Of a stretch of DNA of 60,525 nt, positions 16,124-30,720 are shown piece by piece. Made by a program: the position numbers and the translations under genes. Origin of the DNA: an uncultured Gammaproteobacteria bacterium (GTDB taxonomy: Bacteria; Patescibacteriota; Microgenomatia; UBA10105; UBA927); assembly GCA_964349125.1 (NCBI GenBank), contig CAYGFH010000005.1, forward strand, positions 38,211-98,735, read 5' to 3'. Below the pieces are notes generated by a model. The model ran no database searches. It saw nothing but the letters and a program-made list of their open reading frames with translations, and was not told the origin of the DNA. The first letter of the stretch is position 1. Every line of letters starts with the position of its first letter.

Positions 16124-18757
16124 TTAATTATTGCTCGAATCACGCCTAAATAGCACGGTAGATTCTATTTTTTTCGCCAAATCGAGCAGGAGTTGATGGT
16201 ACCAGGTAAATATTCGCATCCGGATCGAGCTGGGGAGTGCATAGAACGGGTCTTTACGCTTGTGGTACTCCGACATGACATCGTTATATGCTTTTTTTGA
16301 TCCAAAAAGAGTTTCCAACATGGAATACCTATGTTCAATAAACTGAATATGACGCCTAAAATTATAATCAGGGTCATCGAGCTTTTTGTGTATAAGGTCG
16401 TCCAGTGATCTGAATATTTGCCACTCAAGCTCATATACGCCGGAATCATCGTGCATCATATATCCATATTTTAACCATTGAAATGAGTCGCTATCTGATG
16501 CGGCGCTGCCGCCATCCTGAGGCTCTATAGTAAGGATTTTTGAAAATTTTTTATCCCATCGACCTTTCTCCAATGTGTGTTTTGGGTGCAGTGATGCCCG
16601 TCTTTCATCTAACTGATCATGAAATTTCACCAGTATTCGTTGTATTGCCCATACACTGAAGTAGTCGGCCATTTCTGAAAGGTGATCATTTGACAGGTGA
16701 GGGTATTCTTCGGAGAGCGCTTTTTTCCATGAATCTATGTCCAATGCCAGCATGAAGCCAAATTCATCTGTCATTTCACGCTCTGGATGCTCCAATATGC
16801 CCTGCGCAAGAAATTTTCTGTATCTGGAATACTTATCTTTTTCTCGCAGCGAGAAGAATATATCCACATCAAATTGGCTTACATCTATATCCCGAAATAC
16901 AGGATCAGTAAATTCGCCATCGTATGGACGTGATGAGCGGTCCGGGGGTATTGCGAGCAATTCTTTCGGGATATGATGCCTGGTGTATCTACCCCCCTCT
17001 ATAGTGATCGTCTCAACAGGCGCGCCGATGATTGCTTTTGCAGATTCTCTGATAGGTTTGATATGCAAGTTTGTTTTTACTCGAGCAGCCGCATCCACCC
17101 GATCCATGTGAAGTTCATGTACGAGCTTGCACAGGGCAGCAGCCCGTTCTGAAGCGTGCACAGGTTCATCTGCGTATTGATCTACTCCGAGTATAATCAT
17201 CATAAGTTCTCCAATTTCCGACGTGGATGTACCCAGCGGATCACCGTTGAGGCGATTAAGATTTTCCTTTGGAATTTTGTGTGAGAGTGCGAGGATTTCC
17301 TTTTCGATAAATTTATTGACTTCCCCGGATAAATACCCTAATTTTTCCGGATCACCTATTCGCCAAACTTCGGCTGATGTCGGATTGCAAAATCGTTTTG
17401 CCAGAGTTTTACCAACCTGCTCGTACGCCTTAAAATCACTAAATTCCAATTGTCTGTAGAGATTAAATTGCTCTAACAGCTGTGCATGCCACATATCATT
17501 TCTCGGATTTATCTCAAAAACATCACATATTGTATCGATAATATGCTTGAGTTCCGGGCATCTGCTGATGATGCTATATTCGTATGCACCCCAAGTCTCA
17601 ACCTGACTAATGGTATGCGCGAGTAGCAGAGGAAACTGAGGGCCCGCTTCTTTATAATACTCTGTCGTGATATCTAATTTGACTTGACGGACTGCCTCAT
17701 TCATTAACATAGTAAGCATAGATCGTTTTGCAATGCGCTCTTTCGTGACACCTCGTTTTGTGAGTGAAACAATTGTCTGTTCTGGGAATAGGGCAGGGCC
17801 AATAGGTGATAAGGGATTGAGTCGTTTTTCAATTTTTTGTATGAAACCTAATGTTTTGGACAAATCCCTCTGGGCTTCACTCTTCGTCGTAGGTTTTGGT
17901 GCTGCTATAAAATGGCGGATGCTACTGGTAAGCTCCGATTTACCAATTTTTGATAATTGGAGCAATCGAGATAAGACTTTCCTTTGTATAAACGATTCAT
18001 AAACATAGCTTTCCGTTTCGACCGTTTGGGTGAATTGATCCGGTGAATTGTAGAGTTGCACCCTGGCTTTTTTATGATTTTTCGTATCGCGGGATAAGCT
18101 GTCCACTATTGGGTAAAATTTACCGTCAATAGTGAGTCCATTATTGGCAAATAGCGTTGTCACTTGACTTGGCAGCAGTCCGACGACGTTTTGAAGTTTG
18201 TCTTTCGGGTCGAAATAATTGACTTTATCGTGTGGCGCGCCCTTTGCAATCACTAGGTGTGTGGTATTTTTTAACCGTCCTGGGGATTTTATATCAGGTA
18301 ATCGGGGATGATCAAAACTATATGTATATGAGGCATTTGGTGCGACATGCGCTTTGTGAGCATTTAAATGCACCTCATCAAATAGCTCTCGACGGGCTGT
18401 CTTCAATATTGTTTTTTCAGAGATGGGTTTTTCTGGATCTACTTTTATTCCGCCGCCTCCAGGCAAAATGAGCTGCTCAGGATTTACAACCGCCTTTCCG
18501 TTTGCTTTGATTTCCATCATGACGGTGGTCATCTGGGGCATGGCAGATGAGTGATCATGAAACAGCTCATGTTCCAGCGCGATACCGGTAGCGGCCGTAC
18601 CGGCAAGTATCGTGTCTATATTCCCGGGAGATGGGATCATTTGCGATTCGATCGTTGTCCCGTCCATTCTGTAAAGCGCGACACGAACTGTGTCCTGGTG
18701 GTACACATGTTCTGGTGATTTTCTATCTTCTTTATACTGTGATTCAAGTGCATTCAT
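16124..18757 (-). CDS. Nudix + RelA/SpoT-like nucleotidyltransferase fusion (~877 aa)
   Basis: Nudix box LPGGGG...ARRELFDEVH; RSH-synthetase-like motifs REKDKYSRYRK, DEFG and EWQIF. Confidence 0.7.
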   Translation of the reverse strand: MNALESQYKEDRKSPEHVYHQDTVRVALYRMDGTTIESQMIPSPGNIDTILAGTAATGIALEHELFHDHSSAMPQMTTVMMEIKANGKAVVNPEQLILPGGGGIKVDPEKPISEKTILKTARRELFDEVHLNAHKAHVAPNASYTYSFDHPRLPDIKSPGRLKNTTHLVIAKGAPHDKVNYFDPKDKLQNVVGLLPSQVTTLFANNGLTIDGKFYPIVDSLSRDTKNHKKARVQLYNSPDQFTQTVETESYVYESFIQRKVLSRLLQLSKIGKSELTSSIRHFIAAPKPTTKSEAQRDLSKTLGFIQKIEKRLNPLSPIGPALFPEQTIVSLTKRGVTKERIAKRSMLTMLMNEAVRQVKLDITTEYYKEAGPQFPLLLAHTISQVETWGAYEYSIISRCPELKHIIDTICDVFEINPRNDMWHAQLLEQFNLYRQLEFSDFKAYEQVGKTLAKRFCNPTSAEVWRIGDPEKLGYLSGEVNKFIEKEILALSHKIPKENLNRLNGDPLGTSTSEIGELMMIILGVDQYADEPVHASERAAALCKLVHELHMDRVDAAARVKTNLHIKPIRESAKAIIGAPVETITIEGGRYTRHHIPKELLAIPPDRSSRPYDGEFTDPVFRDIDVSQFDVDIFFSLREKDKYSRYRKFLAQGILEHPEREMTDEFGFMLALDIDSWKKALSEEYPHLSNDHLSEMADYFSVWAIQRILVKFHDQLDERRASLHPKHTLEKGRWDKKFSKILTIEPQDGGSAASDSDSFQWLKYGYMMHDDSGVYELEWQIFRSLDDLIHKKLDDPDYNFRRHIQFIEHRYSMLETLFGSKKAYNDVMSEYHKRKDPFYALPSSIRMRIFTWYHQLLLDLAKKIESTVLFRRDSSNN

Positions 18758-18830
18758 AATTGACACGTCGCCTACGCGACATAGTTCCTTCTAAGCTCAT
18801 TCATATGAATGAATTCGCTAAGTAGTCACT

Positions 18831-18852
18831 AAAAAACCCGCTTATCGCGGGT
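18831..18852 (-). terminator. Intrinsic terminator (attenuator C:D hairpin) upstream of the Nudix-RSH gene
   Basis: Minus strand ACCCGC-GAUAA-GCGGGU followed by U-tract. Confidence 0.75.
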
Positions 18853-18884
18853 GTAATTTATAAGGTTTTATGATTCCTATTCCA

Positions 18885-18953
18885 TTACACCCTCGACCCA
18901 TCCCAAAGAAGGGCTGGTTTTCGTGTAATAAAATGGACGACGAATTGATTCAT
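18885..18953 (-). CDS. Putative attenuator leader peptide MNQFVVHFITRKPALLWDGSRV*
   Basis: TACTAT 7 nt upstream; stop codon lies inside the antiterminator strand (18884..18892). Confidence 0.6.
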   Translation of the reverse strand: MNQFVVHFITRKPALLWDGSRV

Positions 18954-19009
18954 AAAACTCATAGTAATGTATCACACATATTTGAAATATGTCAACTCTT
19001 TGTCATAAC

Positions 19010-19038
19010 TTCAAAGCTAAGCTTTGAAATTTTCCGGA
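19010..19038. repeat. Palindrome TTCAAAGCTAAGCTTTGAA plus tail ATTTCCGGAG, copy 1
   Basis: Inverted second copy at 40810..40839. Confidence 0.85.
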
Positions 19039-19318
19039 GCGTATGGATGGGCTGTAAAAACGATAAAACCCCACTTTTTCAAATTGAATCAATGGGGCTT
19101 TAATCACGTATTTCTTTTTTTAAGCAGTGTTACCGTGTGGGGGAGATGTCTCAATCCCGACGTATGTCGGGACTAGGAAAACTCCCACACACACAGATAT
19201 TAATACTTAGTCAAATTGAATTGACTATTTTTTCCTGCAGGTTCATGTGTCTGGAAGTTTTTTCAGTGTCCGAAAGTTAGCTCTCGAGGGCGAATCGAAA
19301 ATATCTTTCGGGTTGGGT

Positions 19319-19756
19319 TTATTGTTGGGTTGCTTCTGGCGTAACTTTGAAAATAGTGCCAATCAAAGCTAATATCCCAGTGACTGTAACCAGAACGGTG
19401 TAAGCCAGCATAATCCAGCCATCCGCAACTTGAAATTCAGCGAGTTCATGAATTCCAAATGGGGTAACCTGAGTGACTAACACCATGCCAGTTGCCAAGG
19501 TTACAAAACCCATAACACCAACTAAAACTCTTGCGATTATCGGAGTTTGAGAATTGTTGAGCCAAGGGCTCATTGCCAAAAGCATGCCTAACGTACAGCC
19601 AAGAGTGTAGGAGAACATATAGTTTGTGCCACCGCTGACTGAAAACCAAACAGCATCTTCAGTCCACGCATTCACTGCGGTTTGAGCGGACCAAAGAAAT
19701 GCAAATGACAAAACTAACCCGGCTACTGTCACAAGCAATCTACCTAAATTCTTCAT
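19319..19756 (-). CDS. Four-TM membrane protein
   Basis: Four hydrophobic helices; strong SD AAAGGAGGTA. Confidence 0.85.
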   Translation of the reverse strand: MKNLGRLLVTVAGLVLSFAFLWSAQTAVNAWTEDAVWFSVSGGTNYMFSYTLGCTLGMLLAMSPWLNNSQTPIIARVLVGVMGFVTLATGMVLVTQVTPFGIHELAEFQVADGWIMLAYTVLVTVTGILALIGTIFKVTPEATQQ

Positions 19757-20066
19757 GGTCTACCTCCTTTCTTTATCATGATCTTCATCAGTCGCCCGAG
19801 GCACAGCCTCTCTCCAAAGCTGATGAAGTGTCAGATCGCATCCGTGGCGTATGGCTGTCCCAGCCGCCTGCGATCGGGGTCAAAGATGACCTGTGTGAAA
19901 AAGAAGAAGGTCATCTTCTGTTTCATTCAGGCCACCTATGTCAAAAAGGAGTGTTCTGCAGAAAATTGGTAATGTGCAATATAAAAAATACGTATTGATA
20001 CAAAGCCGCAAATGGCCATATTCAACGAATAGAGTATAACACTATAAGCTATATATATCAAACCAA

Positions 20067-20140
20067 GGACACGTCGCTCACGCGACATATGTGGCAGTAC
20101 GCCTTGCTCAGGCTTAGGCTACTGCCACAAAAAAATCCCT
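20067..20140. repeat. Dispersed repeat GGACACGTCGCT...ATATGTGGCAGTACGCC...AAAAATCCCT, copy 1
   Basis: First 37 nt nearly identical to 21032..21068 and both copies end in AAAAATCCCT; partial copy at 18762..18783. Confidence 0.8.
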
Positions 20141-20200
20141 AGATCAGTCAGACGCGTTTGCCTGAGATATAAGGATTTATGTTTGTTCGTATCTTATCTT

Positions 20201-20286
20201 TTTCTACAACGCGTTAATTGAAACAATCAACCCCGATACAATCGGGATCAACGCAATTGATTGCTTCAGAAAGAGCGTTGTAGAAA
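20201..20286. repeat. Long REP/MITE-like imperfect palindrome
   Basis: Ends TTTCTACAACGC / GCGTTGTAGAAA with a central CCCCGA-TACAA-TCGGG hairpin. Confidence 0.75.
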
Positions 20287-20466
20287 TAGGTGAAAGGGTC
20301 ATATGAAATGGATTGTCTGCACGATTGCAGCAAAAGTTTCATAGTTTTTTTCAGCTATTTTTTTGGGGAATCCGACGTTTGTCAGATTACGCTCAAGTTC
20401 ACCTTCTCCGGCGCAAAACCAAGAATTATCATCTTGGCTGAAGGATGCAAGACCGGAGAAGGGAGG

Positions 20467-20539
20467 CGGGGATGGCAGGACTCGAACCTACAACCGCTGC
20501 ATTTAAAGTGCAGTATTCTGCCAATTGAACTACATCCCC
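20467..20539 (-). tRNA. tRNA with anticodon UUA (ochre-suppressor type), Trp-like body, no encoded CCA
   Basis: GGGGATG TA GTTC AATTGGCA GAAT A CTGCA CT-TTA-AA TGCAG CGGTT GTAGG TTCGAGT CCTGC CATCCCC G; all four stems pair. Confidence 0.9.
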
Positions 20540-20552
20540 GAACTTAAGAAGA

Positions 20553-20627
20553 CCACACTTCCCAATGGATTCATTCCTCGGAGGACCCGATGAATCCAAA
20601 GCTACCGTTATAACTCGGGAAGTGTGG
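20553..20627 (-). ncRNA. Structured spacer element between the two atypical tRNAs
   Basis: 11-bp stem CCACACTTCCC/GGGAAGTGTGG enclosing a 9-bp stem TGGATTCAT/ATGAATCCA and a small TCCT/AGGA hairpin. Confidence 0.55.
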
Positions 20628-20630
20628 AGG

Positions 20631-20702
20631 TGCCCACGGAAGGATTTGAACCTCCGCTCTTTGCACGGTGAGTGCAATGCTCAACGACTGAGCTGCGTGG
20701 GC
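20631..20702 (-). tRNA. Atypical tRNA(CAC), Val-like or pseudo-tRNA
   Basis: GCCCACG CA GCTC AGTCGTT GAGC A TTGCA CT-CAC-CG TGCAA AGAGC GGAGG TTCAAAT CCTTC CGTGGGC A; C8, no D-loop GG and C37 are non-canonical. Confidence 0.7.
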
Positions 20703-20949
20703 AAGAACTGTGCCTTTTTTCTATCTACCCCCCCCCAACAAAAAGAAAGATACAGATACAAACAACAAAAAAGCTATCTGTTGCTTGTGTCTGTATCTTC
20801 ATCTGATGATGTAAACGTGCAAAAACGAACGTTTTGAGAGTGTATCATAAACGATCAGTATTTCGCAATCTATTCTTTATTTCTCTGACATGTCTCTTGC
20901 GGATATTTGTGGCACAGCGCGCCCCAAAATTCTTGTTAATACCTATTTC

Positions 20950-20975
20950 GCTATCATGTAACGGTACATGATAGC
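20950..20975. repeat. Palindrome GCTATCATG-N8-CATGATAGC, copy 2
   Basis: Matches 6916..6941; extends to tatttc...gaaata (20944..20981). Confidence 0.8.
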
Positions 20976-21031
20976 GAAATACTGAAACTGTCCACATGTC
21001 AAATATACGGAATCAGATAGTAATCTATTAT

Positions 21032-21160
21032 GGACACGTCGCTTGCGCCACATATGTGGCAGTACGCCAAGGAGTGCAATGTATCCAGCTTTGCCGGATA
21101 GTGCCTCGTACGCCTTTTCTCTATGAATCGAACGGGCTACGATTGCACTAAAAAATCCCT
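21032..21160. repeat. Dispersed repeat, copy 2, with an internal insertion flanked by GTACGCC duplication
   Basis: Same ends as 20067..20140; GTACGCC at 21062 and 21107. Confidence 0.75.
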
Positions 21161-21306
21161 CGGGAGTTCAACGCAAATGTTGAATCTCGGGGGACTTAAT
21201 TACGGTCTCGCAAAGGGGGATTGGATCAACCCCGATTAAATCGGGACTGAGTAAAACCCCCTTTCTTCTAAATTGTTGTATTGCACTAACCGCCGGTTCA
21301 CGCCTG

Positions 21307-21813
21307 TTACACATCCACTTTCTCAGGTGGAGGAATTTTGGGAACTTTTTCCCGTTCAAAAAAATGCCGTTCCGCCCAAGGAAACAATGACCAGAACAAA
21401 ACGTTACCCAGCACAAATGGAAGATCAATTAGCATAAGTAACGCAGGGAGCACTGCTGATGCTACAAACGCGCTGATTGTGTTTTTCGGCTTCGCTGTAA
21501 TTCCAGTTGAATGATTCCAACTAAAACCCAGGTAATACGCACCTATGAAGCCGGATAGTATGCCAGCGATGAGCCTGTTAATTCCTGCAGTTTCCATAGA
21601 GACGAACGTGAGAAATACCGCGATCAAAAAGGCGAGTATCTGTTCGATGTTCGCAGTATTTTGATCATCATCGTATCTGGTGATCCTCCTTTCCTTTTTG
21701 CTCTTCATTCTTGATACGGCGACAAGCAAGTTTCCAAAAATCGCCAGAAGGCTTGCCAGAACTGCTAAAACTGCGAGCCATTCGTGCCAGTTCGATGGAT
21801 ATTGAATTACCAT
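21307..21813 (-). CDS. Membrane protein, hypothetical
   Basis: Several TM segments; closely coupled to the upstream ORF. Confidence 0.8.
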   Translation of the reverse strand: MVIQYPSNWHEWLAVLAVLASLLAIFGNLLVAVSRMKSKKERRITRYDDDQNTANIEQILAFLIAVFLTFVSMETAGINRLIAGILSGFIGAYYLGFSWNHSTGITAKPKNTISAFVASAVLPALLMLIDLPFVLGNVLFWSLFPWAERHFFEREKVPKIPPPEKVDV

Positions 21814-21815
21814 GA

Positions 21816-22064
21816 TTACCTCTGCATTCTGCTTAGTGCTTTACCAATCAGCCAGCACCCTCCGATTGGGGCTATAAGACAACAAGTCCCTACACCAAGA
21901 ACGAGTAAGGTTTGAATAACTGATGGGAGGTTAGCCATTGCATTCCTCCTTATTCCGGACGCACGCCGAAATACTTGAGCGTGCCGAACTTGGGCGCTTC
22001 TAACAAAATAACTATGACGATGCCTGCGCCTGTTGCGACGAGCAAAAATTTCCACCATGGCCAT
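21816..22064 (-). CDS. Small basic membrane protein
   Basis: Arg-rich N-terminus, one TM, AAAGGAG upstream. Confidence 0.65.
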   Translation of the reverse strand: MAMVEIFARRNRRRHRHSYFVRSAQVRHAQVFRRASGIRRNAMANLPSVIQTLLVLGVGTCCLIAPIGGCWLIGKALSRMQR

Positions 22065-22558
22065 CTCGTTTTCATCTTATTTCGATTCTCCTTTCGTTTC
22101 TAAGATGATATTCCAAAAAAATAGTCAATCCACGTTCGTTGGCTATTTTTCATGGAATACCATGTGAATCCAGTTAGAAAATTGCGTTACAACAATGTCA
22201 AGGTGCTAAGCACCGCAGTCCCGTAGCATCGCTCTTCCAATAGAGAAGTAAGATGTTAGCGGGGCAATGTGCGAGACTTTTGGGATTATAGCAAAATGCA
22301 TCGGGTTTTGTGAAACATCCTGTCTGGTAGCTTCAAACAAAAAGGGCACTTATTACTATAAGCCTTTCTATGGTATAATACAGAGGCAATCTTTGGCAGA
22401 AGCGCCAAAACGATTGTTTTTTGCACGTTTACATCCCCCATATTACAGAACTACCATTCTGTTGTCGCGCGCATTTGGGATACATACTACATGTATTTCA
22501 ACTGTGCGCGACACACAATTTTCAATTCTATTTAAACAGTAAAGGAAAAAGAGTAATC

Positions 22559-22882
22559 ATGTCAAAGAGAAGAATGGTAATAAGAACTGGTTTGGACCAA
22601 AAGAATGTAGACTACGTAATAGAAACCGCGGTTTCAGTAATGGGAATCATTACTGGGAAAATCGGGGACAATGTACTTGAGTTCACATGCAAAAGTGATG
22701 TACCCGCAGACGAAATGTATCTTACATTTGAATTCGGTCTCACTAGAGGTGCCTCAACTTTCCTCACAACGTACGAGGAGATTTTCGCGAATGTTGGTTG
22801 GGACTTTGGTGAGCTGGAAATCATTCGTGAGGATGATATTCCAGAGTCTGCAATTTCGCAGATAGAACTCAAGTTGCAATAA
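22559..22882 (+). CDS. Small acidic hypothetical protein (107 aa; start MSKRRMV)
   Basis: AAGGA upstream; downstream hairpin tggccgttatt/gtaatggcca. Confidence 0.75.
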   Translation: MSKRRMVIRTGLDQKNVDYVIETAVSVMGIITGKIGDNVLEFTCKSDVPADEMYLTFEFGLTRGASTFLTTYEEIFANVGWDFGELEIIREDDIPESAISQIELKLQ

Positions 22883-22964
22883 TCATTGCCTTTGGCCGTT
22901 ATTCGGTCGCGCCGTAATGGCCAAGGGTGTTGGTGTGTTTTGTTGTATGGGGGATTGATTTTAC

Positions 22965-23849
22965 TTAGTGAAACATCTCCATGATAATCCGTCCGCTTTC
23001 CCAGAAGCCGTACAAAGCCAGTAGAATAAAGGCAATCGTACCCGCAAACGAAATGTATTCATTTTTCACTGCCTGTATTGTCTTGGCGGGGGAAATAAAC
23101 AGTGCAATATTCAGAATCGTATGGGCGGATATGACGCCGATGGCAAATCCGTAGACGTTAATGACACTAAAAAGTGGCACATATCCGGCAAAATCATCCA
23201 AGCCCAGTATAAAAGGAACAGATGCGGAAAATACAAGCAATTGTTTCCAAGATAATTTACTCTGACCTTTTAACTTTTCTCCAAGATTCGGCATGATGCG
23301 GGATAACACGGGGTCTGTGAGCTTGTTTATACCGCCTAAGAATCCTGAAAGGGCCTGAAATATAGCGTTTTTGACCCCATGACCCGCTTTCCAGGTTTCA
23401 AAGTGCTCCAGTGAGCCATGCGCCAGTTCAAACAATACCAGAGCCGCAAGCGCGACCATGAGAGCGAGCAGGATGTGCACATCTTTGAACAATACCCAGA
23501 GACCGATAATGGCAATCGTTCCCAGGGCGTTGCCTGCCGCCGTGCCGATCTCTATGGCCACTCTATTTTTCCATCCGGTGTTTGTGGTCATGAGCCTACC
23601 CATGAAAATAGCGAAATCGATGGATGTCTTGAGATAGATGGTTATACCGATTGCCACATCCACCCAGTGAATATTCATGTCTATAACTTCTCTGACGGGA
23701 AACAGATTAAAAAATAAGAGAGCACTATGAAGAGTGAAAATGAGCACCAGAAGAACCACGACTGTAAGGCAGAGGGGGACGAGCTGACGCAATAATCTGG
23801 AATCCTCTACGGTTTTGACAAATACATTCATTGTCACAGTATACCTCAA
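22965..23849 (-). CDS. CadD-like (LysE superfamily) membrane transporter
   Basis: TSIDFAIF and LGLDDFAGYVPLF resemble the two CadD repeats; multiple TM helices. Confidence 0.65.
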   Translation of the reverse strand: MRYTVTMNVFVKTVEDSRLLRQLVPLCLTVVVLLVLIFTLHSALLFFNLFPVREVIDMNIHWVDVAIGITIYLKTSIDFAIFMGRLMTTNTGWKNRVAIEIGTAAGNALGTIAIIGLWVLFKDVHILLALMVALAALVLFELAHGSLEHFETWKAGHGVKNAIFQALSGFLGGINKLTDPVLSRIMPNLGEKLKGQSKLSWKQLLVFSASVPFILGLDDFAGYVPLFSVINVYGFAIGVISAHTILNIALFISPAKTIQAVKNEYISFAGTIAFILLALYGFWESGRIIMEMFH

Positions 23850-23905
23850 TCAGCCCAATCATACCGCTGAATTTATATGTTGTAAAGATATATACAACAC
23901 ACCTA

Positions 23906-23933
23906 TTGACATTTCATATGTTTGGAGTATGAT
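23906..23933 (+). promoter_or_regulatory. sigma70-type promoter of the attenuated right operon
   Basis: TTGACA-N16-TATGAT. Confidence 0.7.
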
Positions 23934-23967
23934 GTCCTATAAAACGCCAAAGCTTTGGCAAAATACC

Positions 23968-24021
23968 ATGAAATCATTCGCCGTAACAAAATTTATTATT
24001 ACAGACCTTCATTTTGAGTAG
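23968..24021 (+). CDS. Putative attenuator leader peptide MKSFAVTKFIITDLHFE*
   Basis: TAG overlaps the antiterminator strand 24020..24032; N-terminus resembles the 18885..18953 leader. Confidence 0.6.
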   Translation: MKSFAVTKFIITDLHFE

Positions 24022-24057
24022 GTTTGTGTTTGCGTATGTAATGAGTTACTCAAACAC

Positions 24058-24084
24058 AAACCTCCAGCAAATGGAGGTTTTTTT
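24058..24084 (+). terminator. Intrinsic terminator (attenuator C:D hairpin)
   Basis: AAACCTCCA-GCAAA-TGGAGGTTT followed by TTTT, 25 nt before the first operon gene. Confidence 0.85.
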
Positions 24085-24109
24085 GTGGAAGCAAAAGAAA
24101 TGAATATCT

Positions 24110-24706
24110 ATGAATAAAGAGATACCGGAACGTTCATTTATGATCACTGGCGTGCCTTCTGTAGGGAAGACGGAGCTCTCGCGTGAACTGTATAAACTGC
24201 AAGACTTTATACCACATCCGCCATATACAACTCGCCCACTCAGAGTAAATGAGTGTTCCTCAGATATGCGTAGCATCACAGAAGAAGAATTTCTGAATTT
24301 ATATGCACTTCGTCGTCTCATAGAGGGTGAACTTAATATTCCATACGAACGAACGGGATATTTGGGAAAACGATATGGTTCGCCTGTTGACTGGATGGTT
24401 GTGGAAACGCATATGCATGCAGCAATAGGATTTGTATCGTTTAGTACGTTAATTGCGTCCGTCGTCAAGCGCTCTGTTGGGGAAAACGTTGCATGGATTC
24501 ATCTTACTGCAAATGAACAGGTGCGTCGGATCAGGCTTGCTGAACGAAAAATTCCGGAAGAGGAAATAACCCGCAGATTAGCAAATACAGATGGAGATAG
24601 TCATGCATATTTTGATGCAGCTGATCTTGTTGTAGATACCTCATCTATTTCATTAACTGATGAAGCGTCGATGGTTCTCTCGTATATCAATCGTGCTTCC
24701 ATTTAA
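24110..24706 (+). CDS. Guanylate-kinase-like P-loop kinase
   Basis: TGVPSVGKT P-loop, YTTRPLRVNE and YGSP motifs. Confidence 0.85.
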   Translation: MNKEIPERSFMITGVPSVGKTELSRELYKLQDFIPHPPYTTRPLRVNECSSDMRSITEEEFLNLYALRRLIEGELNIPYERTGYLGKRYGSPVDWMVVETHMHAAIGFVSFSTLIASVVKRSVGENVAWIHLTANEQVRRIRLAERKIPEEEITRRLANTDGDSHAYFDAADLVVDTSSISLTDEASMVLSYINRASI

Positions 24707-24717
24707 CACACATATCT

Positions 24718-27700
24718 ATGCCTGAACTTCCCATGAGCCATTTTAAAATTCCTATTGATCATCAGCAAAATAATGCTGATATGACACAGCGGACTCTCTT
24801 ACAAGGGGAGTCGTTAACCATGGACGTATCAGACGCTGAACAGTTTTCATTACCGGCATATATGAGTGCACTTGAACACCATGTGTTGCATAACAGATCC
24901 CGTATTAAAGAAACATGGATGGATATGCCTGTATGGGGTGACGGAATCAGTTTGCGGCATTTTAGCGAGCCTCAGGCTGTTTTTCACCCTCTTTCAGGGG
25001 GAATTCTTATACCAAAGAATGGACTGAGTGATCAGTTGCACTCATTTTATGCAGTACCTCGACATGGAGTAGTATTGGGCAATCATATAGATAACAGGGC
25101 TGCCGCATATTTTGCCCCCGTAGATCCTGCCATGTCGACCCGTGATAGGCTCAGCGCTATACAACAAAATATCAACGATACTCTGTCTGTTTTATCTACA
25201 GTAGATTTTACCGAACAATCAGATGCTGATTTTTTAGGCACTCTGGGCTTGTTAGATACCATAAAAACGAGCTATCTATCTTTGTACCATACTCTTACGT
25301 ACTCCGAACGCACAGATACTCAATTTCATGACGATGAGTATGCCACAGTCAAACAATCTCTGCTTGGTAGGGCATTTGATGCTGTCCAAACGTATTATTT
25401 ATACATGCTTGGGCACACTCAACGTGCTTTGCATATTTCGGCAAAACTGCCAAACATGCAGCGTGTATTGGCACGTGATATTGAATATATGAAGCAACGT
25501 AATCTTCCGCGGGAGCATTTCCGGTTACCAGAGTTGGATCATCCGTTAAGCATTGCTGGAAATGTCATCTTGAATATTGCTACATACCCTTCGATAGATA
25601 CGATAATCGGTTTACCTTCTGGGGGAACTGAATTGGCCTTTGCTCATCAAATAGGGTACGAATTGATACATGGTAGGATGCCGGATATTATCTTGGTTCC
25701 GTTGTCTACACATTCTGGCTTGCCAAATACCGACGAAAAACGCGACATTCAGATCGTTAAACAATGTCTGGACTCCTATCACAACGCTATAGATGGGAAA
25801 TCTATACTCGTGACCGAAGATAATGCTAATTCCGGAGAAACAGCCTCAATTATACAGTCTCAGCTTTTGTCTGCCGGTGCAAAAGAAGCACATGTAACTA
25901 TAGCAGCGTTAGATACTATTCGCACCGCAATAAAACAAACAAAATGGCCTGCGGATCGTCGGCCTCGTATTGTTCCCGGTATGTCACTTGTTCAAAACGC
26001 CGTTACAATAGCGCCAATTATAAAACGCACGTTCAATGACGTATCAGATGATCGTCAGATTGTGAAATTACTGCGTCTCAGACGTATTCGAGATGCATAT
26101 AGAGCACATCTGCCGAACAATGAACCACTTCCGGATGTACAGCCGGGTATTTCCACAGCATTGAACGTGAAAATATGTGGTATTCATAACGCGGTTGATT
26201 TACGCAATGCCGTTAGTGCCGGTGCTCGGATGGTAGGAATTCATTTGACGTATGACAACCCACGCGGATACGAGTCAAAAGTAGGCTCATTTGCTCATCC
26301 TATGGCTGAAATAGGACTTACTATGGCGCGTGGATTCCACCCACAGAAATCGCTACCGTTACCATGGGCGGAATATGGGTCTCTGAAGCACATGATGGCG
26401 GATGCCACTGATATTCAAGTGCCGCTTACATTCGTCCTTCTTATGCGTCCAAAATCCGTACATGACGTATTGGCCATGGTAGAAACGGCAGTTCCAAAAG
26501 GATTTACCCATCAGATCGATCTTCAGATACAGCGGTCATATGATCAAGACTTTTTGAAGGAACTGAGAGAAACGCTCAACGCTCATGGGTATACGAATAT
26601 CCGAATAATTCAGACATTCGGTGCGAATCAAGAACATATAGAATCACTTCTGCAACGTGCGAACGCGGATGATCATATTGATTTTATATTATTGGATTCA
26701 GACCTCAAGGGTGGGACTGGCATACAAACCAGCTCAACCCTTCTAGTCAACTTGGCGGAGCAAATACAAAAACCATGGTATCTGTCCGGTGGTCTGCGTG
26801 CAGAAAATATAAAAAATACGCTCACGTCGCTGAGAGGCACAAATCTGTTTGGTGTGGATGTAGAATCATCGGTGGAACTGGAGAGACCGATTTCTACAAC
26901 AGTAGGGGCAACGCACGCGTTCGCGCGTGTGAGAAAAGATATCGAAAAAATGAACACATTTATGTATCAGGTACAGCAAGCTGAACTGCAAACATTTTTT
27001 GAGACCCGCTATATGGATTTGGATGTACGCCAAACAGAATTCTATGCTGTACTCAAGAATGGATGGAAATCTGCATATGAGGAATGTGGATACTATAATC
27101 TTGATGCAATTGCTCGTGCAGTATATGCGGAAGCGACATCACGTGGTATTGTCGGTAGCATTAACGAAGAAGATTTTGTAGCAGTATTTAAAGAAGGTGC
27201 CATAGCGTATCCATTCGTGCCGGATCAATATATTCAGGACAATTGGCCGGCAAATAACGTACAAGATTTTCTCAATATCATACGAACGCAGGTATCTGCA
27301 ACAGCGGGATCTGTAGGAGTGTTAACATCAGGTGACTCTGAGTTGTTCGATAGCGGCAGCTACCAAGGTAGCCCAGAACAGGTATATAGATTCCGATTAT
27401 CAGGGTTACAACGGCTAATGAATGACCTATATGGACCTGAAGGATATACGTTTATAGCGCACCCATTTAAGGTACAAGAATTTGAATCCCACATACTCGA
27501 GAAGGCCAAGTCATCTTCCTCTCTAGTTATATGTATTGATGATAGGGTAGAGAATCTTCAAAAAACCAGGCACTTATGTGAACGTGAAGGGGTACGGTTT
27601 GTTGGAATCAATATATCTTCAGAGAGTAATGATGCTGATTTTATACAATGTGCCGATCTGGCATCTGCGGCAGAAGTTATAACCCAACTGCCCACAGATG

Positions 27701-27819
27701 CACCGCATATGTATGTGTTGGATATGGATGACGTACTTCTGAAGGAACAATTTAGAAAAGATCATCAGGCCAAAAATATATACCTTAATCTGGTAAAACA
27801 TACCTGTATACACATATGA
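24718..27819 (+). CDS. Multidomain fusion: unknown N-terminus, type I phosphoribosyltransferase, TrpF/PRAI-like TIM barrel, HAD-like domain
   Basis: SILVTEDNANSGET (PRPP loop); VKICGI, FILLDS, GGTG, LSGGL, GVDVESSVE and KDIEK (TrpF); MDLD, LTSG, HPFK and IDDRVENL (HAD). Confidence 0.85.
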   Translation: MPELPMSHFKIPIDHQQNNADMTQRTLLQGESLTMDVSDAEQFSLPAYMSALEHHVLHNRSRIKETWMDMPVWGDGISLRHFSEPQAVFHPLSGGILIPKNGLSDQLHSFYAVPRHGVVLGNHIDNRAAAYFAPVDPAMSTRDRLSAIQQNINDTLSVLSTVDFTEQSDADFLGTLGLLDTIKTSYLSLYHTLTYSERTDTQFHDDEYATVKQSLLGRAFDAVQTYYLYMLGHTQRALHISAKLPNMQRVLARDIEYMKQRNLPREHFRLPELDHPLSIAGNVILNIATYPSIDTIIGLPSGGTELAFAHQIGYELIHGRMPDIILVPLSTHSGLPNTDEKRDIQIVKQCLDSYHNAIDGKSILVTEDNANSGETASIIQSQLLSAGAKEAHVTIAALDTIRTAIKQTKWPADRRPRIVPGMSLVQNAVTIAPIIKRTFNDVSDDRQIVKLLRLRRIRDAYRAHLPNNEPLPDVQPGISTALNVKICGIHNAVDLRNAVSAGARMVGIHLTYDNPRGYESKVGSFAHPMAEIGLTMARGFHPQKSLPLPWAEYGSLKHMMADATDIQVPLTFVLLMRPKSVHDVLAMVETAVPKGFTHQIDLQIQRSYDQDFLKELRETLNAHGYTNIRIIQTFGANQEHIESLLQRANADDHIDFILLDSDLKGGTGIQTSSTLLVNLAEQIQKPWYLSGGLRAENIKNTLTSLRGTNLFGVDVESSVELERPISTTVGATHAFARVRKDIEKMNTFMYQVQQAELQTFFETRYMDLDVRQTEFYAVLKNGWKSAYEECGYYNLDAIARAVYAEATSRGIVGSINEEDFVAVFKEGAIAYPFVPDQYIQDNWPANNVQDFLNIIRTQVSATAGSVGVLTSGDSELFDSGSYQGSPEQVYRFRLSGLQRLMNDLYGPEGYTFIAHPFKVQEFESHILEKAKSSSSLVICIDDRVENLQKTRHLCEREGVRFVGINISSESNDADFIQCADLASAAEVITQLPTDAPHMYVLDMDDVLLKEQFRKDHQAKNIYLNLVKHTCIHI

Positions 27820-28847
27820 AAGAAACAGGAAATATAGGCTCAGTATTTGCAGCAAAACACATACCGTTGTCCCTAAAAGAAAGCGGTGTACAGATTAGAT
27901 ATGCAGAAACAGTACAGGGATTAGCAGAGCAGAGTGTCCCTCTTGATGCGCTCCTTGAAACAGCCCAGCAAACGGTAACCGAACAAACACAGCAAATAGT
28001 AAACCCCGGAAGCGTTATTGTATATCCGGGGAGGCATCCGGAATCTAAACATCCTATGGATGTTCTGTTGGCTAAAGGTATTGCATTGTATCGTATGGAA
28101 ACCAGCCCATGGAATGACGCTGTTGTCCAGTTCGCGCTTCAGACAGAACAGGCGTTGTGCGGCAACCTACCAATACACAAGGATACATTGTTTTCAGATA
28201 TGTTAGGTACCATAAAACAATCGGAGGTTGAATCTGGCGCCGTTGGCATCATAGGAGCAGGAGATATTGGTTCAGGGATAGCGCAGGCGATGTGTGAGAG
28301 TGGTAGGCATGTGTTGTACGTTTCAAGATCTGTACGGCCTCAATTGGATGCGTTTGGTGCACGCAGAGTGGGGTTGAAAGAAGCATTCTCAACTGCGCAA
28401 AGTTTGTTTATTACATTGCCGTACTCGTTAGACACTAAAAACATGATACATGGTAGTCTCATTTCTCAAATGCGTCCGAATGCCCGTTTGATTTCTGTAT
28501 CCGCAGCTGGTGTTATAGACGAAAACGCCCTTGTTTCATCTCTATGCAATGGAAACACTATCTCTGTAGCGTTGGACGTATATAACGGAGATATATCAGG
28601 TTCTGTGCTACATCCGGGCAATTCTCCAGGACTTACGTCTGTATATAAGCAAGGGAGGATACTTGTGACACCGCATATTGCGTACAAAACCGGAGAGTCT
28701 ACGAAAGTACTACTTCATACGATGGCACAGCCTATTTTGAATATGCTATACGGATATGGACTAGAGGAAACAGTGATCGTACCTACACCAGCTGAGCTTC
28801 AAACGCATTATTTAAAACCATCTTATACTATCAAACGGACAGTATAA
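27816..28847 (+). CDS. D-isomer-specific 2-hydroxyacid dehydrogenase family protein
   Basis: IIGAGDIG, ALDVY and LVTPHIAY motifs; overlaps the upstream stop (ATGA). Confidence 0.85.
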   Translation: MKETGNIGSVFAAKHIPLSLKESGVQIRYAETVQGLAEQSVPLDALLETAQQTVTEQTQQIVNPGSVIVYPGRHPESKHPMDVLLAKGIALYRMETSPWNDAVVQFALQTEQALCGNLPIHKDTLFSDMLGTIKQSEVESGAVGIIGAGDIGSGIAQAMCESGRHVLYVSRSVRPQLDAFGARRVGLKEAFSTAQSLFITLPYSLDTKNMIHGSLISQMRPNARLISVSAAGVIDENALVSSLCNGNTISVALDVYNGDISGSVLHPGNSPGLTSVYKQGRILVTPHIAYKTGESTKVLLHTMAQPILNMLYGYGLEETVIVPTPAELQTHYLKPSYTIKRTV

Positions 28848-28920
28848 GCGTGTATATATGCGCTTTCCAACCTAACTGTTGTTATAGGGCTATAACCTAT
28901 AGTATAATGGCGCTACCTTT

Positions 28921-29475
28921 ATGAACATTTTTGAGAAAAATGATCGTTTTCGTGGAGATCCGTATGGCTGGCTCCCCCGTGGAGAAAATGCCGGTGTTTC
29001 GTTCGTCAAAATGAAACCTTTATCGGTTGATGATATAAAACGATTTACTTCACAATTATTTTTTGTAGAGGCAGATCCTGGTGATGGTGTTTTTATACCC
29101 AATGGAAGTGTTGGCGTGACGCGAGATTTTGGCCCGTGCTCGGCAGCCATATTAACCGGTATCAATGATTACTCTTGGTTAGGACATTTAAAACCGGGAA
29201 CAGGTATTCCACCCGAACATGTACAGCAAATTAGACGCGATATAAATGCAGGTTCTCAATTGAATATTGCTCTTGTCGGCGGGTGTGAATTTAACAGAAC
29301 CGGTATGGGATCATATCGACAAAGTCAGATTGTCACAATACAAAAGCAGTTTGCAGATTCCGGTTTATCTGTTGCTATTCAAGCGTATTGGAATCCTGTT
29401 GCGGACTCCTGGATGTTTGCTGCTGTCCATGCTAACTTTGGCCACGCCACAGCCACCGTAGCTTACGAATTATAG
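28921..29475 (+). CDS. CheD/CNF1/YfiH-like Cys-His hydrolase (putative deamidase)
   Basis: TRDFGPCSAAIL...WLGHL spacing resembles CheD TxGLGSCV...GxxH. Confidence 0.55.
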   Translation: MNIFEKNDRFRGDPYGWLPRGENAGVSFVKMKPLSVDDIKRFTSQLFFVEADPGDGVFIPNGSVGVTRDFGPCSAAILTGINDYSWLGHLKPGTGIPPEHVQQIRRDINAGSQLNIALVGGCEFNRTGMGSYRQSQIVTIQKQFADSGLSVAIQAYWNPVADSWMFAAVHANFGHATATVAYEL

Positions 29476-29774
29476 TCATCAAATTCAATTATCCTCACGG
29501 AAAAATATATTGTTTAAAAATATACAACAAAAACTTCATTTTATTGACATTATAGGATATAATATGGGTACCTGCGTGGAAACAGGTATGTATGTTGCCA
29601 CACCGACCCACACATGCGTGGAATCGGGGGGCGACTACGAGCTCTTTAACATGGGATAAGGGTGTGTATATCTCCTTTTTTGCTTCATTTTTTGCCCGGA
29701 AACATGGTCACAGTCGTCCTGCGGCCGTATCTACGGGCAAAAAATTCAAAATCAGAAAGATTGGAGATAGCGAA

Positions 29775-30638
29775 ATGAATAAAAAATATGGTAGGTTAGT
29801 TTTGCTGCTTGTTGCAGCAATCGTATTGTCGGCTTGTGGCGGCGTCAGTGGCCCCAAATTGACCATTACGACTGTGGTTGTCGCGCAAGTTGGAGATGTC
29901 GAATTCGAGTTGACGACGTTAGGTTCGGAAGCGATTTCCGTTTCGAAGGTTGAAAACGAAGACACCGGTGCCTCCAGTTGGAATGCTGACCTGGCGAAGC
30001 TTGCTAAGGCTCGTTCAGACGCTGAAACTGAGGTCGCTGCTATGAACGGGCGGTATGATGCAATCAACGGCATCAGCCACCCCAAAATTGTGTTGGAATC
30101 GTCTGAACTTGACGAGCTCATTGCGGCGAAAGGCGTCATAAAGAAAGGGAAGTACGAAGGTAGTGAGATCACGATAGTCTATCGTGTAGAGGGCGGCGAT
30201 GATCTCAAATTCAATAGCCTGGTAGGTGATAGAATCAGCTTCACAATCAACATTGCTGACGGCGGGCTTGTAGGAGATTTCTCTCAACCGACAGCCAGCT
30301 TCGTATCTTTCCTGCAAGGAGATAGGCTACCTGAGGCGAAAATTCGCGTAGACATGCGGTCCGATTTCTATGATCCAAGCCTTCGTGTAATCGAGTCTGG
30401 ACATCTGGGAACTCTTACCGTTCTCAACACAAATAATGGTCCTGTGTGCGATATCGCCAATGCTTTATTGAGCTTCATCTCAGCACAAAATGGTGGAAAC
30501 ATTGTCAAGAGGGTTTGGACAAATGGACCTTCCATGACCATCTCATTATGGGAGGATCGCAATCCACCCACACCCACCCCGTATCCCTCCTCAACGCCTT
30601 ATTCGCCGGCTACGCCCGTACCGACGATAATGCCGTAG
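29775..30638 (+). CDS. Putative lipoprotein with Pro/Thr-rich C-terminal tail
   Basis: MNKKYGRLVLLLVAAIVLSA|CGG signal peptide with lipobox; GGAGA upstream. Confidence 0.8.
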   Translation: MNKKYGRLVLLLVAAIVLSACGGVSGPKLTITTVVVAQVGDVEFELTTLGSEAISVSKVENEDTGASSWNADLAKLAKARSDAETEVAAMNGRYDAINGISHPKIVLESSELDELIAAKGVIKKGKYEGSEITIVYRVEGGDDLKFNSLVGDRISFTINIADGGLVGDFSQPTASFVSFLQGDRLPEAKIRVDMRSDFYDPSLRVIESGHLGTLTVLNTNNGPVCDIANALLSFISAQNGGNIVKRVWTNGPSMTISLWEDRNPPTPTPYPSSTPYSPATPVPTIMP

Positions 30639-30653
30639 AGGCTTCCACGCAGA

Positions 30654-30720
30654 TCCTTAACCGGGTCGCCAATGTTTTTTTTGTAATTTATTGGCGCCCG
30701 GTTAGGATTTGTTTTTTTCA
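30654..30720 (+). terminator. Long-stem terminator-like hairpin
   Basis: atcct-taaccggg...gccaat / attggcg-cccggttaggat followed by a U-rich tract. Confidence 0.65.

What the first reader, a model, noticed from the sequence alone, without database searches (positions are those of the whole stretch)
23906..24109. Second attenuator with a similar leader peptide in front of the kinase/PRTase-TrpF operon
A promoter (TTGACA-N16-TATGAT) precedes the leader MKSFAVTKFIITDLHFE*. Segment A ACAGACCT (24001..24008) pairs with B (24020..). B AGGTTTGTGTTTG (24020..24032) forms a perfect 13-bp duplex with C CAAACACAAACCT (24051..24063), which overlaps the terminator (24058..24084). The leader resembles the left one (MKSFAVTKFIIT vs MNQFVVHFIT) and has no Trp codon despite the TrpF-like cargo, suggesting a shared signal such as Phe/Ile/Thr/Val tRNA supply or general ribosome stalling.
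Basis: partly seen in the sequence, partly recalled or inferred. Interest (0 to 1): 0.75.

Follow-up and report, generated by a model that had tools for sequence, protein, structure and literature searches.

The report
Leader-peptide transcription attenuator, CPR bacterium
A short translated mini-gene followed by a switchable transcription stop signal sits in front of an orphan nucleotide-chemistry operon in an ultrasmall (Patescibacteria) bacterium; it is a well-formed, selectively conserved example of a known regulatory device, but what it senses is still unknown.

Summary

I add a fourth pairing. The last ORF codons (24003-24016) pair with the terminator's 3' arm, so untranslated RNA folds into one long hairpin ending at the U-tract (-34 kcal/mol, z = -6.4).

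Modelling a ribosome footprint gives three states:
- No ribosome, or an early ribosome: the long terminator forms.
- Ribosome at the stop codon: the plain terminator forms.
- Ribosome held at about codons 10-15: the antiterminator forms.

In the only relative that has the element (97% identical kinase), the 204-nt control region has 2 changes, against 7.1% divergence at fourfold sites (P = 4e-5). The elements are unique in the genome, match no Rfam family, and are absent from 40 related genomes.

The organism is Gottesmanbacteria-like. The "left" leader belongs to a conserved translated leader family. Its resemblance to this leader is only modest (p about 0.01-0.03), and that family's invariant features are absent here. 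A shared signal is therefore unproven.

Verdict: a real ribosome-mediated attenuator and a new member of a known kind, with the signal undetermined. No transcript data could be obtained.

The parts
23906..23933 (+). Sigma-70-type promoter, TTGACA-16-TATGAT. The inferred transcription start is about 23940.
   Evidence: 11 of 12 matches, the best in 18000-32000. In the 97% relative, sequence conservation begins exactly at the -35 box: 5 differences in 23850-23905 and 0 in 23906-23967.
23946..23959 (+). Perfect 14-bp palindrome GCCAAAGCTTTGGC in the 5' UTR. It may be a 5' stem-loop or an operator; its role is unknown.
   Evidence: It is unique in the genome and identical in L003.
23968..24021 (+). 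Leader ORF, 17 codons plus TAG: MKSFAVTKFIITDLHFE*. It starts at the first AUG of the predicted transcript. It has no Shine-Dalgarno sequence, which is normal for this genome.
   Evidence: The ORF is intact in L003 with T7A and I10V. SD-like motifs precede only 16% of genes, against an 11.5% background.
24001..24016 (+). Segment 1, inside the ORF (codons 12-17). It pairs weakly with segment 2 (24001-24008 with 24020-24027, -8.4 kcal/mol). It pairs strongly with segment 4 (24003-24016 with 24065-24080).
   Evidence: I1.
24020..24032 (+). Segment 2, the 5' arm of the antiterminator. It overlaps the last 2 nt of the TAG stop codon.
   Evidence: A modelled ribosome at the stop codon masks it.
24051..24066 (+). 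Segment 3. Positions 24051-24063 form the 3' arm of the 13-bp antiterminator. Positions 24058-24066 form the 5' arm of the terminator. The two share 6 nt.
   Evidence: I2.
24072..24084 (+). Segment 4, the terminator 3' arm TGGAGGTTT, and the U7 tract (24078-24084).
   Evidence: 9-bp stem, 4 GC pairs, 5-nt loop, T-run; -12.8 kcal/mol.
24100..24117 (+). Mini-ORF MNIYE* in the leader's reading frame. Its TAA overlaps the kinase start codon, so translational coupling is possible. The leader frame is also open from the TAG to this TAA (31 codons).
   Evidence: The open frame is expected in 6% of composition-matched shuffles.
24110..28847 (+). Controlled operon: a guanylate-kinase-like P-loop kinase (24110-24706), a 1033-aa PRTase-like / PRAI / HAD-like fusion (24718-27819) and a D-2-hydroxyacid dehydrogenase (27816-28847). 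Two further genes, 28921-29475 and 29592-30638, may also belong to it.

Best explanation
This is a ribosome-mediated (leader-peptide) transcription attenuator that is OFF by default.

Transcription starts at about 23940 from a strong promoter. The operon can only be transcribed by reading through the terminator at 24058-24084.

The RNA has four segments and three outcomes:
1. No ribosome, or a ribosome still in codons 1-8. Hairpin 2:3 forms and is then extended by 1:4 into one long interrupted hairpin ending at the U-tract. Transcription terminates.
2. A ribosome that has run to the TAG. It covers segment 2, so segment 3 is free to pair with segment 4. Transcription terminates.
3. A ribosome held with its P-site at about codons 10-15 (I-I-T-D-L-H). 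It covers segment 1 but leaves segment 2 free. The 13-bp 2:3 antiterminator forms first and segment 4 has no partner. Transcription reads through into the kinase / PRTase-PRAI / dehydrogenase operon.

The early 1:2 hairpin probably acts as the pause or synchronising hairpin.

The sequence shows the anatomy, the energetics, the purifying selection and the lack of any alternative promoter. Translation of the ORF, the stall and its cause are inferred.

My best guess for the cause is slow decoding at the Ile-Ile-Thr codons (and neighbouring ones) at the 5' edge of segment 1. That would mean limiting charged tRNA or general elongation stress in an amino-acid-auxotrophic symbiont. This assignment is weak.
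For: Anatomy and statistics.

Footprint-masked and length-stepped folding reproduces the three states:
- P-site codons 1-8: the long hairpin forms, with P(segment 4 paired) = 0.94.
- P-site I11-D13: a 12-13 bp antiterminator forms and only a 4-bp remnant is left at the terminator.
- P-site E17: the full 9-bp terminator forms.

Only 22 nt lie between the U-tract and the kinase ATG, and the upstream gene is divergent. The terminator therefore ends no upstream gene and must gate the operon.

Purifying selection, L003 against the window:
- 2 differences in 204 nt and 0 in the 150 non-ORF nt, against 30/421 (7.1%) at fourfold sites of the adjacent genes.
- P = 4e-5 and P = 1.5e-5 respectively.
- Both changes lie upstream of the paired segments and keep the ORF intact.

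The elements are unique in the genome. A genome-wide scan finds only six terminators in 5' UTR position, and two of them are these leaders.

The same lineage demonstrably uses translated leader ORFs before terminators. Five orthologous loci of the left cluster carry leaders with conserved start and stop codons, and all three indels are multiples of 3. A more distant homologue in G029 also carries one.

The missing SD is normal for this genome.
Against: - There is no transcript or ribosome data.
- Only two near-identical instances exist, so there is no covariation and no test of coding constraint. Both substitutions in the ORF are non-synonymous.
- A 17-codon ORF in 54 nt is not improbable by chance.
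- At equilibrium, the antiterminator (-15.3) and the combination of truncated 2:3 plus terminator (-18.1) are close in energy. Antitermination therefore depends on kinetics.
- The leader has no run of one amino acid's codons and no rare codons.
- More distant homologues of the operon have no such leader (L004, L117).
Confidence: 0.62

Rival explanations
1. The RNA switch is the same, but the stall comes from the nascent peptide itself (F-A-V-x-K-F-I/V-I-T), together with a small molecule in the exit tunnel. That molecule could be a ribosome-targeting antibiotic or a metabolite, as in the erm, cat and ABC-F leaders, TnaC or SpeFL. tRNA supply would not be the trigger.
For: - The leader is hydrophobic and has no run of one amino acid's codons and no rare codons.
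- It resembles the second leader in the same island.
- From my own memory, not tested here, it looks like the IFVI / IAVV class of macrolide arrest peptides.
- uORF attenuators that respond to general ribosome stalling are documented, for example whiB7 (PMC10274678) and vmlR (PMC9226507).
Against: - The FAVTKF part sits where a modelled stall does not relieve termination (P-site codons 4-9).
- The 97% relative already changes two residues of the motif.
- The cargo is not a recognisable resistance gene and has no PADLOC hits.
- The peptide similarity is only p about 0.01-0.03.
Confidence: 0.15
2. This would be a stop-codon read-through switch. The nearby tRNA with anticodon UUA (20465-20539, minus strand) would read the leader's UAG by wobble. 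The ribosome would then translate 31 more codons through segments 2, 3 and 4. That would prevent terminator formation, as in pyrBI, and the ribosome would stop at the TAA overlapping the kinase ATG, coupling translation into the operon.
For: - An intact tRNA(UUA) lies 3.4 kb away in the same island (ARAGORN; Rfam 70.9 bits).
- The leader frame is open from the TAG to the TAA at 24115-24117, which overlaps the kinase start.
- That open frame occurs in only 6% of composition-matched shuffles.
- The genome is SD-poor, so coupling would be useful.
Against: - TAA is the main stop codon and TAG a normal one in this genome (460 and 161 of 831 long ORFs). An active ochre suppressor would be costly.
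- p = 0.06 is weak evidence.
- The mini-ORF MNIYE* could provide the coupling without any read-through.
- The left leader's frame closes 8 codons after its TAA, before the terminator.
- Left-type leaders occur in genomes without any sign of this arrangement.
- The elaborate 1:4 / 2:3 / 3:4 alternatives are not needed for this model.
Confidence: 0.08
3. The ORF is incidental. The terminator/antiterminator would be controlled by a trans-acting protein or RNA. Alternatively it is a constitutive leaky terminator, or the end of a separate ~145-nt small RNA.
For: - There is no direct evidence that the ORF is translated.
- Both substitutions in the ORF are non-synonymous.
- A conserved, unique 14-bp palindrome in the 5' UTR could bind a regulator.
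- The whole 204 nt is conserved, not just the ORF.
Against: - The stop codon abuts the antiterminator arm and segment 1 lies inside the ORF. This is exactly the layout of the translated left-type leader family of the same lineage.
- Rfam gives no riboswitch, T-box or PyrR match even at E <= 10. The best match is Phe_leader at 25 bits against a gathering score of 55.
- The perfect 13-bp hairpin has no aptamer-like features.
Confidence: 0.15

Closest known systems
Classical leader-peptide attenuators of enterobacterial amino-acid operons (trpL, pheL, thrL, ilvL, hisL)
   Same: It has a promoter-proximal short ORF and four RNA segments with mutually exclusive antiterminator and terminator. The stop codon lies at the segment 1/2 boundary. 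Termination is the default without translation. Candidate control codons (Ile-Ile-Thr) lie at the 5' edge of segment 1.
   Different: - There is no run of codons for one amino acid.
- The cargo is not amino-acid biosynthesis.
- The 'no ribosome' lock is made by 1:4 extending 2:3 into one long terminator, not by a strong 1:2 hairpin.
- The host is a Patescibacteria genome with almost no SD use.
- It is not a member of Rfam Phe_leader (25.1 bits against 55).
Ribosome-stalling attenuators of stress and resistance genes (erm/ABC-F leaders such as vmlR, PMC9226507; the whiB7 uORF, PMC10274678)
   Same: A short hydrophobic leader without amino-acid runs precedes an intrinsic terminator. Induction would come from any event that holds the ribosome inside the uORF. 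The cargo is not an amino-acid pathway.
   Different: The cargo is not a recognisable resistance or stress regulator. No arrest motif has been verified, and inducers are unknown.
The 'left' leader family of the same lineage, upstream of the 880-aa orphan gene (window 18953-18885 and orthologues L110, L112-L115)
   Same: It occurs in the same genome and island and has the same architecture, with the stop codon inside the antiterminator 5' arm. The N-terminus resembles M-x-x-F-x-V-x-F-I-T.
   Different: - The left family has a strong 1:2 hairpin, an invariant Val-His, an invariant CGA Arg codon and a GxGDVV-stop end. It also has a start codon 6-9 nt after the -10 box, which looks leaderless. None of these is present in the right leader.
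- The DNA similarity is not significant.
- The modelled stall windows differ.
The E. coli pyrBI attenuator (UTP-sensitive coupling; the leader ORF runs through the terminator)
   Same: It controls a nucleotide-metabolism cargo and has a U-rich leader. The leader frame is open through the terminator if the TAG is ignored.
   Different: An in-frame TAG stops the ORF before the antiterminator, so the pyrBI mechanism would need stop-codon read-through.

Membership tests
Leader-peptide (ribosome-mediated) transcription attenuators | An intrinsic terminator between a promoter and the first structural gene, with no upstream gene to terminate. | tested here: met
   The promoter is at 23906-23933, the terminator at 24058-24084 and the gene ATG at 24110. 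The upstream gene is divergent.
Leader-peptide (ribosome-mediated) transcription attenuators | An antiterminator helix mutually exclusive with the terminator. | tested here: met
   The 13-bp 2:3 helix shares 24058-24063 with the terminator's 5' arm.
Leader-peptide (ribosome-mediated) transcription attenuators | A short ORF whose 3' part and stop codon overlap the segments that decide between the two folds. | tested here: met
   Segment 1 is codons 12-17, and the TAG overlaps segment 2 by 2 nt. Footprint masking gives position-dependent folds.
Leader-peptide (ribosome-mediated) transcription attenuators | The leader ORF is actually translated and ribosome position changes termination. | not testable with these tools
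The only indirect support is that the ORF is kept in L003 and that the left-type leaders have indels in multiples of 3.
Amino-acid-specific attenuators (trp/phe/thr/ilv type) | Clustered codons of the regulatory amino acid, and a cargo in that amino acid's pathway. | tested here: not met
   The leader has 3 Phe, 2 Ile, 2 Thr and 1 Val scattered along it, and no rare codons. The cargo is a kinase, a PRTase-PRAI fusion and a dehydrogenase.
Rfam Phe_leader (RF01859) and all other Rfam cis-regulatory families | A score at or above the family's gathering threshold. | tested here: not met
   Phe_leader scores 25.1 bits against 55 (E = 0.034). No riboswitch, T-box or PyrR match appears at E <= 10.
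Left-type leader family of Gottesmanbacteria-like genomes | Invariant GTC-CAY (Val-His), an invariant CGA codon, a G-x-G-D-V-V-stop end forming segment 2, and an ATG 6-9 nt after the -10 box. | tested here: not met
   Alignment A1 and the leader listing. The right leader has none of these features, and its ATG is 34 nt after the -10 box.
Antibiotic-inducible arrest-peptide attenuators | A drug-dependent arrest motif and a resistance gene as cargo. | tested here: inconclusive
   No resistance or defence family matches the cargo. Arrest cannot be tested in silico.

The most novel reading that the evidence does not exclude
Two unrelated orphan nucleotide-chemistry clusters flank an intact ochre-suppressor-type tRNA(UUA). 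Both are gated by leader ORFs whose stop codons sit on the antiterminator arm. In the right one, the frame stays open for 31 codons through the terminator to a TAA that overlaps the kinase start codon. Together these could form a tRNA-driven stop-codon read-through switch. Suppressor activity would carry the ribosome through the terminator, turning on transcription and coupled translation of the operon at once.
Probability: 0.08. Interest if true: 0.8.

Novelty: new member of a known kind. Interest (0 to 1): 0.4.

Why it matters
If it works as modelled, an amino-acid-auxotrophic, host-dependent Patescibacteria bacterium uses ribosome position as the input for switching on an accessory PRPP- and nucleotide-type pathway. 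That pathway has almost no relatives among about 5.8 billion proteins.

Three things follow:
- The library I could search holds no paper linking leader-peptide attenuation with Patescibacteria. This element would be one more case for the view that the device is a general regulatory tool in the phylum.
- It offers a compact three-state switch design: a 1:4 extension lock plus the classical 3:4 terminator.
- It gives a practical handle on the orphan operon. Whatever stalls this leader is the condition under which the operon is needed.

On its own it does not change how attenuation is understood.

Tried and rejected
- **Rfam.** Gathering thresholds on the whole window and E <= 10 on 23850-24150 gave only a sub-threshold Phe_leader match.
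- **Orthologues in 40 related genomes.** The kinase is absent. DNA hits are only generic CCTCC...GGAGG terminators.
- **Protein search of 5.8 billion sequences.** The kinase has 2 homologues and the fusion protein 4. Only the 97% relative has the leader. L004, L117 and L118 do not, or are truncated.
- **Genome-contig scan with the fusion protein.** Nothing found.
- **Metagenome scan with a degenerate back-translation of the leader peptide.** 0 hits.
- **Hypothesis that the two leaders are a recent DNA duplication.** Rejected: local alignment score 19 against a null of 15.8 +/- 2.5.
- **Hypothesis of a shared palindromic operator.** Rejected. The left palindrome, CAAAGCTAAGCTTTG, is a multi-copy genomic motif. 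The right one is unique and different.
- **Repeat or MITE origin of the hairpins.** Rejected.
- **Longer 30-codon leader containing a Trp codon (ATG at 23929).** Rejected. Those ATGs lie inside the -10 box, and conservation in L003 starts at the -35 box.
- **PADLOC defence families.** No hits for either cluster.
- **PHROGs.** Only a guanylate-kinase family and one family of unknown function matched two operon proteins.
- **RNAalifold on the left-type leaders.** The alignment was too poor for useful covariation.
- **RSH assignment of the left cargo.** Not reproduced. There is only a weak NUDIX hit at E = 0.042.

Full report
**Observation**

- A TTGACA-16-TATGAT promoter at 23906-23933. It matches 11 of 12 positions and is the best promoter-like site in an 18000-32000 scan.
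- An ORF at 23968-24021 encoding MKSFAVTKFIITDLHFE*.
- Segment A, ACAGACCT (24001-24008).
- Segment B, AGGTTTGTGTTTG (24020-24032).
- Segment C, CAAACACAAACCT (24051-24063).
- A terminator, AAACCTCCA-GCAAA-TGGAGGTTT (24058-24080), with seven T at 24078-24084.

The region folds much better than shuffled controls: z = -4.8 for 156 nt and -6.4 for 96 nt, with 0 of 200 shuffles as good. None of the arms occurs anywhere else in the 1.6-Mb assembly, so this is not a dispersed repeat.

The minimum-energy fold is not the textbook 1:2 plus 3:4 arrangement. The last codons of the ORF (24003-24016) pair with the 3' arm of the terminator (24065-24080), around the 13-bp B:C hairpin. The result is one 32-nt interrupted inverted repeat (I1) whose 3' end abuts the U-tract.

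Evaluated separately, the helices are:
- 1:2, -8.4 kcal/mol.
- 2:3, -15.3 kcal/mol.
- 3:4, -12.8 kcal/mol.
- Truncated 2:3 plus 3:4, -18.1 kcal/mol.
- Nested 1:4 plus 2:3, -33.9 kcal/mol.

**Context**

The upstream gene (22965-23849) is on the other strand. The U-tract ends 22 nt before the ATG of the first gene (24110). The terminator therefore cannot be the end of another gene, and there is no room for a second promoter. The operon can only be transcribed by read-through.

The cargo is:
- A guanylate-kinase-like P-loop kinase (AAA_18, 1.6e-7; phrog_1815, 6e-11).
- A 1033-aa protein with a PRAI domain (3e-11), a weak PRTase signature and a HAD-like end.
- A D-2-hydroxyacid dehydrogenase.

MreB neighbours identify the organism as Patescibacteria / Microgenomatia, Gottesmanbacteria-like. 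The genome uses the standard stop codons: TAA 460, TGA 210 and TAG 161 of 831 long ORFs. It hardly uses Shine-Dalgarno sequences. SD-like 4-mers precede 16% of genes against an 11.5% background, and upstream regions are A-rich. The missing SD before the leader is therefore not an argument against translation.

**Modelled mechanism**

I masked a 27-nt ribosome footprint at each P-site codon and folded the RNA available when polymerase reaches the U-tract. I also folded stepwise-lengthened transcripts.

- Without a ribosome, a 1:2-type hairpin forms first (by 24028). It is replaced by 2:3 once segment 3 is made (24064). That hairpin is then extended by 1:4 into the long hairpin (-40.7 kcal/mol for the whole leader).
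- With the P-site at codons 1-8, the same long hairpin forms, with P(segment 4 paired) = 0.94.
- With the P-site at I11, T12 or D13, the 12-13-bp antiterminator is the minimum-energy fold. Only a 4-bp remnant, not adjacent to the U-tract, is left at the terminator.
- With the P-site at E17 (stop codon in the A site), segment 2 is covered and the full 9-bp terminator forms.

The element therefore behaves in silico as a default-OFF switch that opens only when a ribosome is held at about codons 10-15. At equilibrium the antiterminator and the 'truncated 2:3 plus terminator' state are nearly isoenergetic. As in the classical attenuators, the outcome would be under kinetic control. This step is inferred.

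**Comparative evidence**

The kinase has only two homologues among about 5.8 billion proteins, and the operon is absent from 40 related genomes.

The 97% relative (L003, Logan SRR22387875) carries the same control region. Counts against the window:

| Stretch | Differences |
|---|---|
| 23906-23967 (promoter to ATG) | 0 of 62 |
| 23968-24021 (leader ORF) | 2 of 54 (T7A, I10V; both 5' of the paired segments) |
| 24022-24109 (structure to kinase ATG) | 0 of 88 |
| 23850-23905 (just upstream of the -35 box) | 5 of 56 |
| Fourfold sites of kinase and fusion genes | 30 of 421 (7.1%) |

This gives P(<=2 of 204) = 4e-5 and P(0 of 150 non-ORF nt) = 1.5e-5. The whole unit, starting exactly at the -35 box, is under purifying selection.

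The 57% relative (L004) and more distant homologues of the fusion protein (L117, L118) have no such leader. A degenerate search for the leader peptide in metagenome contigs found nothing. The element is therefore lineage-specific, and no covariation test is possible.

**The 'left' leader and the shared-signal idea**

The left leader (18953-18885, minus strand) has a classical 1:2 / 2:3 / 3:4 layout.

I collected seven homologues of its 880-aa cargo and read their upstream regions.
- Five have a leader ORF followed by a terminator: L110, L112, L113, L114 and L115. Examples are MNQTVVHFITRKPALLWDGSRV, MNAQRFQITVHTSRRFLAGIGGGDVV and MAHLRAKQFPVHYFRLICVGEGDVV.
- L111 has only a 13-codon MNQT... 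ORF that runs into the terminator itself, so it looks truncated.
- L116 has no obvious leader.
- A more distant homologue in G029 also has a leader and terminator.

In the aligned leaders:
- The start and stop codons are conserved.
- All three indels are multiples of three.
- GTC-CAY (Val-His) and a CGA Arg codon are invariant.
- The ATG lies 6-9 nt after the -10 box.

This shows that the lineage uses translated leaders before terminators, which supports the reading of the right element by analogy.

It does not support a shared signal, for five reasons:
- The right leader lacks every invariant feature of that family.
- The peptide resemblance is marginal, with p about 0.03 (local) and 0.01 (N-terminally anchored) against 8516 short ORFs.
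- The DNA resemblance is not significant.
- Close orthologues alter shared residues: F4T on the left, T7A and I10V on the right.
- The modelled productive stall windows differ: left P-site F4-F8, right about I10-H15.

**What it senses**

This remains open.
- The leader has no amino-acid run and no rare codons. The Ile-Ile-Thr codons do sit at the 5' edge of segment 1, where control codons sit in trpL-type leaders.
- Limiting charged tRNA or general elongation stress is my first choice. These bacteria must import their amino acids.
- A peptide- or ligand-dependent arrest is second.
- Read-through of the TAG by the nearby tRNA(UUA) is a more exotic option. It rests on the leader frame staying open for 31 codons through the terminator to a TAA overlapping the kinase ATG. 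That happens in 6% of composition-matched shuffles. The evidence is suggestive but weak, and TAA and TAG are ordinary stops in this genome.

**Comparison with known systems and novelty**

All structural criteria of a ribosome-mediated attenuator are met. The amino-acid-specific criteria (codon run, cognate pathway) are not. It is not a member of Rfam Phe_leader (25.1 bits against a gathering score of 55) or of any other Rfam family.

Functionally it is closest to the general ribosome-stalling attenuators, such as the whiB7 uORF (PMC10274678) and vmlR (PMC9226507).

I found no paper linking leader-peptide attenuation with Patescibacteria. Earlier notes of this scan report many such elements in the phylum. 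Those notes are unverified leads. They raised my prior that this element is real and lowered its novelty.

I class it as a new member of a known kind and set interest at 0.4.

**Limits**

Translation of the ORF, the stall site and the inducing condition are all inferences.

Noticed in passing
window 20465-20539 (-) and 20629-20702 (-): An intact tRNA with anticodon UUA (it would read UAA, and UAG by wobble) lies next to tRNA-Val(CAC), between the two attenuated clusters. The genome uses TAA as its main stop codon (460 of 831 long ORFs).
   Followed up: partly
window 18885-18953 (-); loci L110, L112-L115, L006: The left leader belongs to a conserved family of translated leaders with terminators, upstream of an 870-880-aa orphan gene in Gottesmanbacteria-like genomes. 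Val-His and a CGA Arg codon are invariant, the peptides end in GxGDVV-stop, indels are multiples of 3, and the ATG lies 6-9 nt after the -10 box, suggesting leaderless mRNAs. In L111 the leader is truncated to MNQT... running straight into the terminator.
   Followed up: partly
window 19012-19026 and 40823-40837; also C2:44266 and C2:52340 of the genome: The palindrome CAAAGCTAAGCTTTG, often followed by AAATTTTCCGGAG, recurs at four or more loci, with further near-copies. One copy is just upstream of the left leader's -35 box. It may be a transcription-factor site or a REP-like element.
   Followed up: partly
window 22965-23905 against L003: The divergent upstream gene differs by 17% from the 97% relative, mostly at synonymous sites. 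The leader and operon differ by only 1-5%. A recombination or transfer boundary therefore lies at about 23850-23905, just upstream of the promoter.
   Followed up: no
L004 (SRR13131472 contig) and L117 (JAXDEL010412981.1): Homologues of the kinase and PRTase-PRAI fusion lie in sugar and glycan contexts. In L004 they follow PGM/PMM, an inositol-monophosphatase-like gene and a 539-aa orphan. In L117 the kinase is fused to the large protein, inside a cluster of GT4/GT2 glycosyltransferases, a methyltransferase, a Ham1-like protein and an SDR. The operon may make a PRPP-derived building block for a surface glycan.
   Followed up: no
window 24022-24117: After the leader's TAG, the same frame is open for 31 codons (VCVCVCNELLKHKPPANGGFFVEAKEMNIYE). 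It ends at a TAA overlapping the kinase ATG. The last six codons (five sense codons plus the TAA) also form a mini-ORF, MNIYE*, that could couple translation into the kinase gene.
   Followed up: partly
window 16124-18766 (-): The 880-aa left cargo gives only a weak NUDIX hit (E = 0.042). Pfam, NCBIfam, PDB sequences and PADLOC give no sequence support for a RelA/SpoT-type domain.
   Followed up: partly
whole genome (G000): Shine-Dalgarno motifs are barely enriched before genes (16% against an 11.5% background). Position -1 before ATG is T in 64% of tightly defined starts. This suggests unusual initiation signals, or many leaderless or coupled starts.
   Followed up: no
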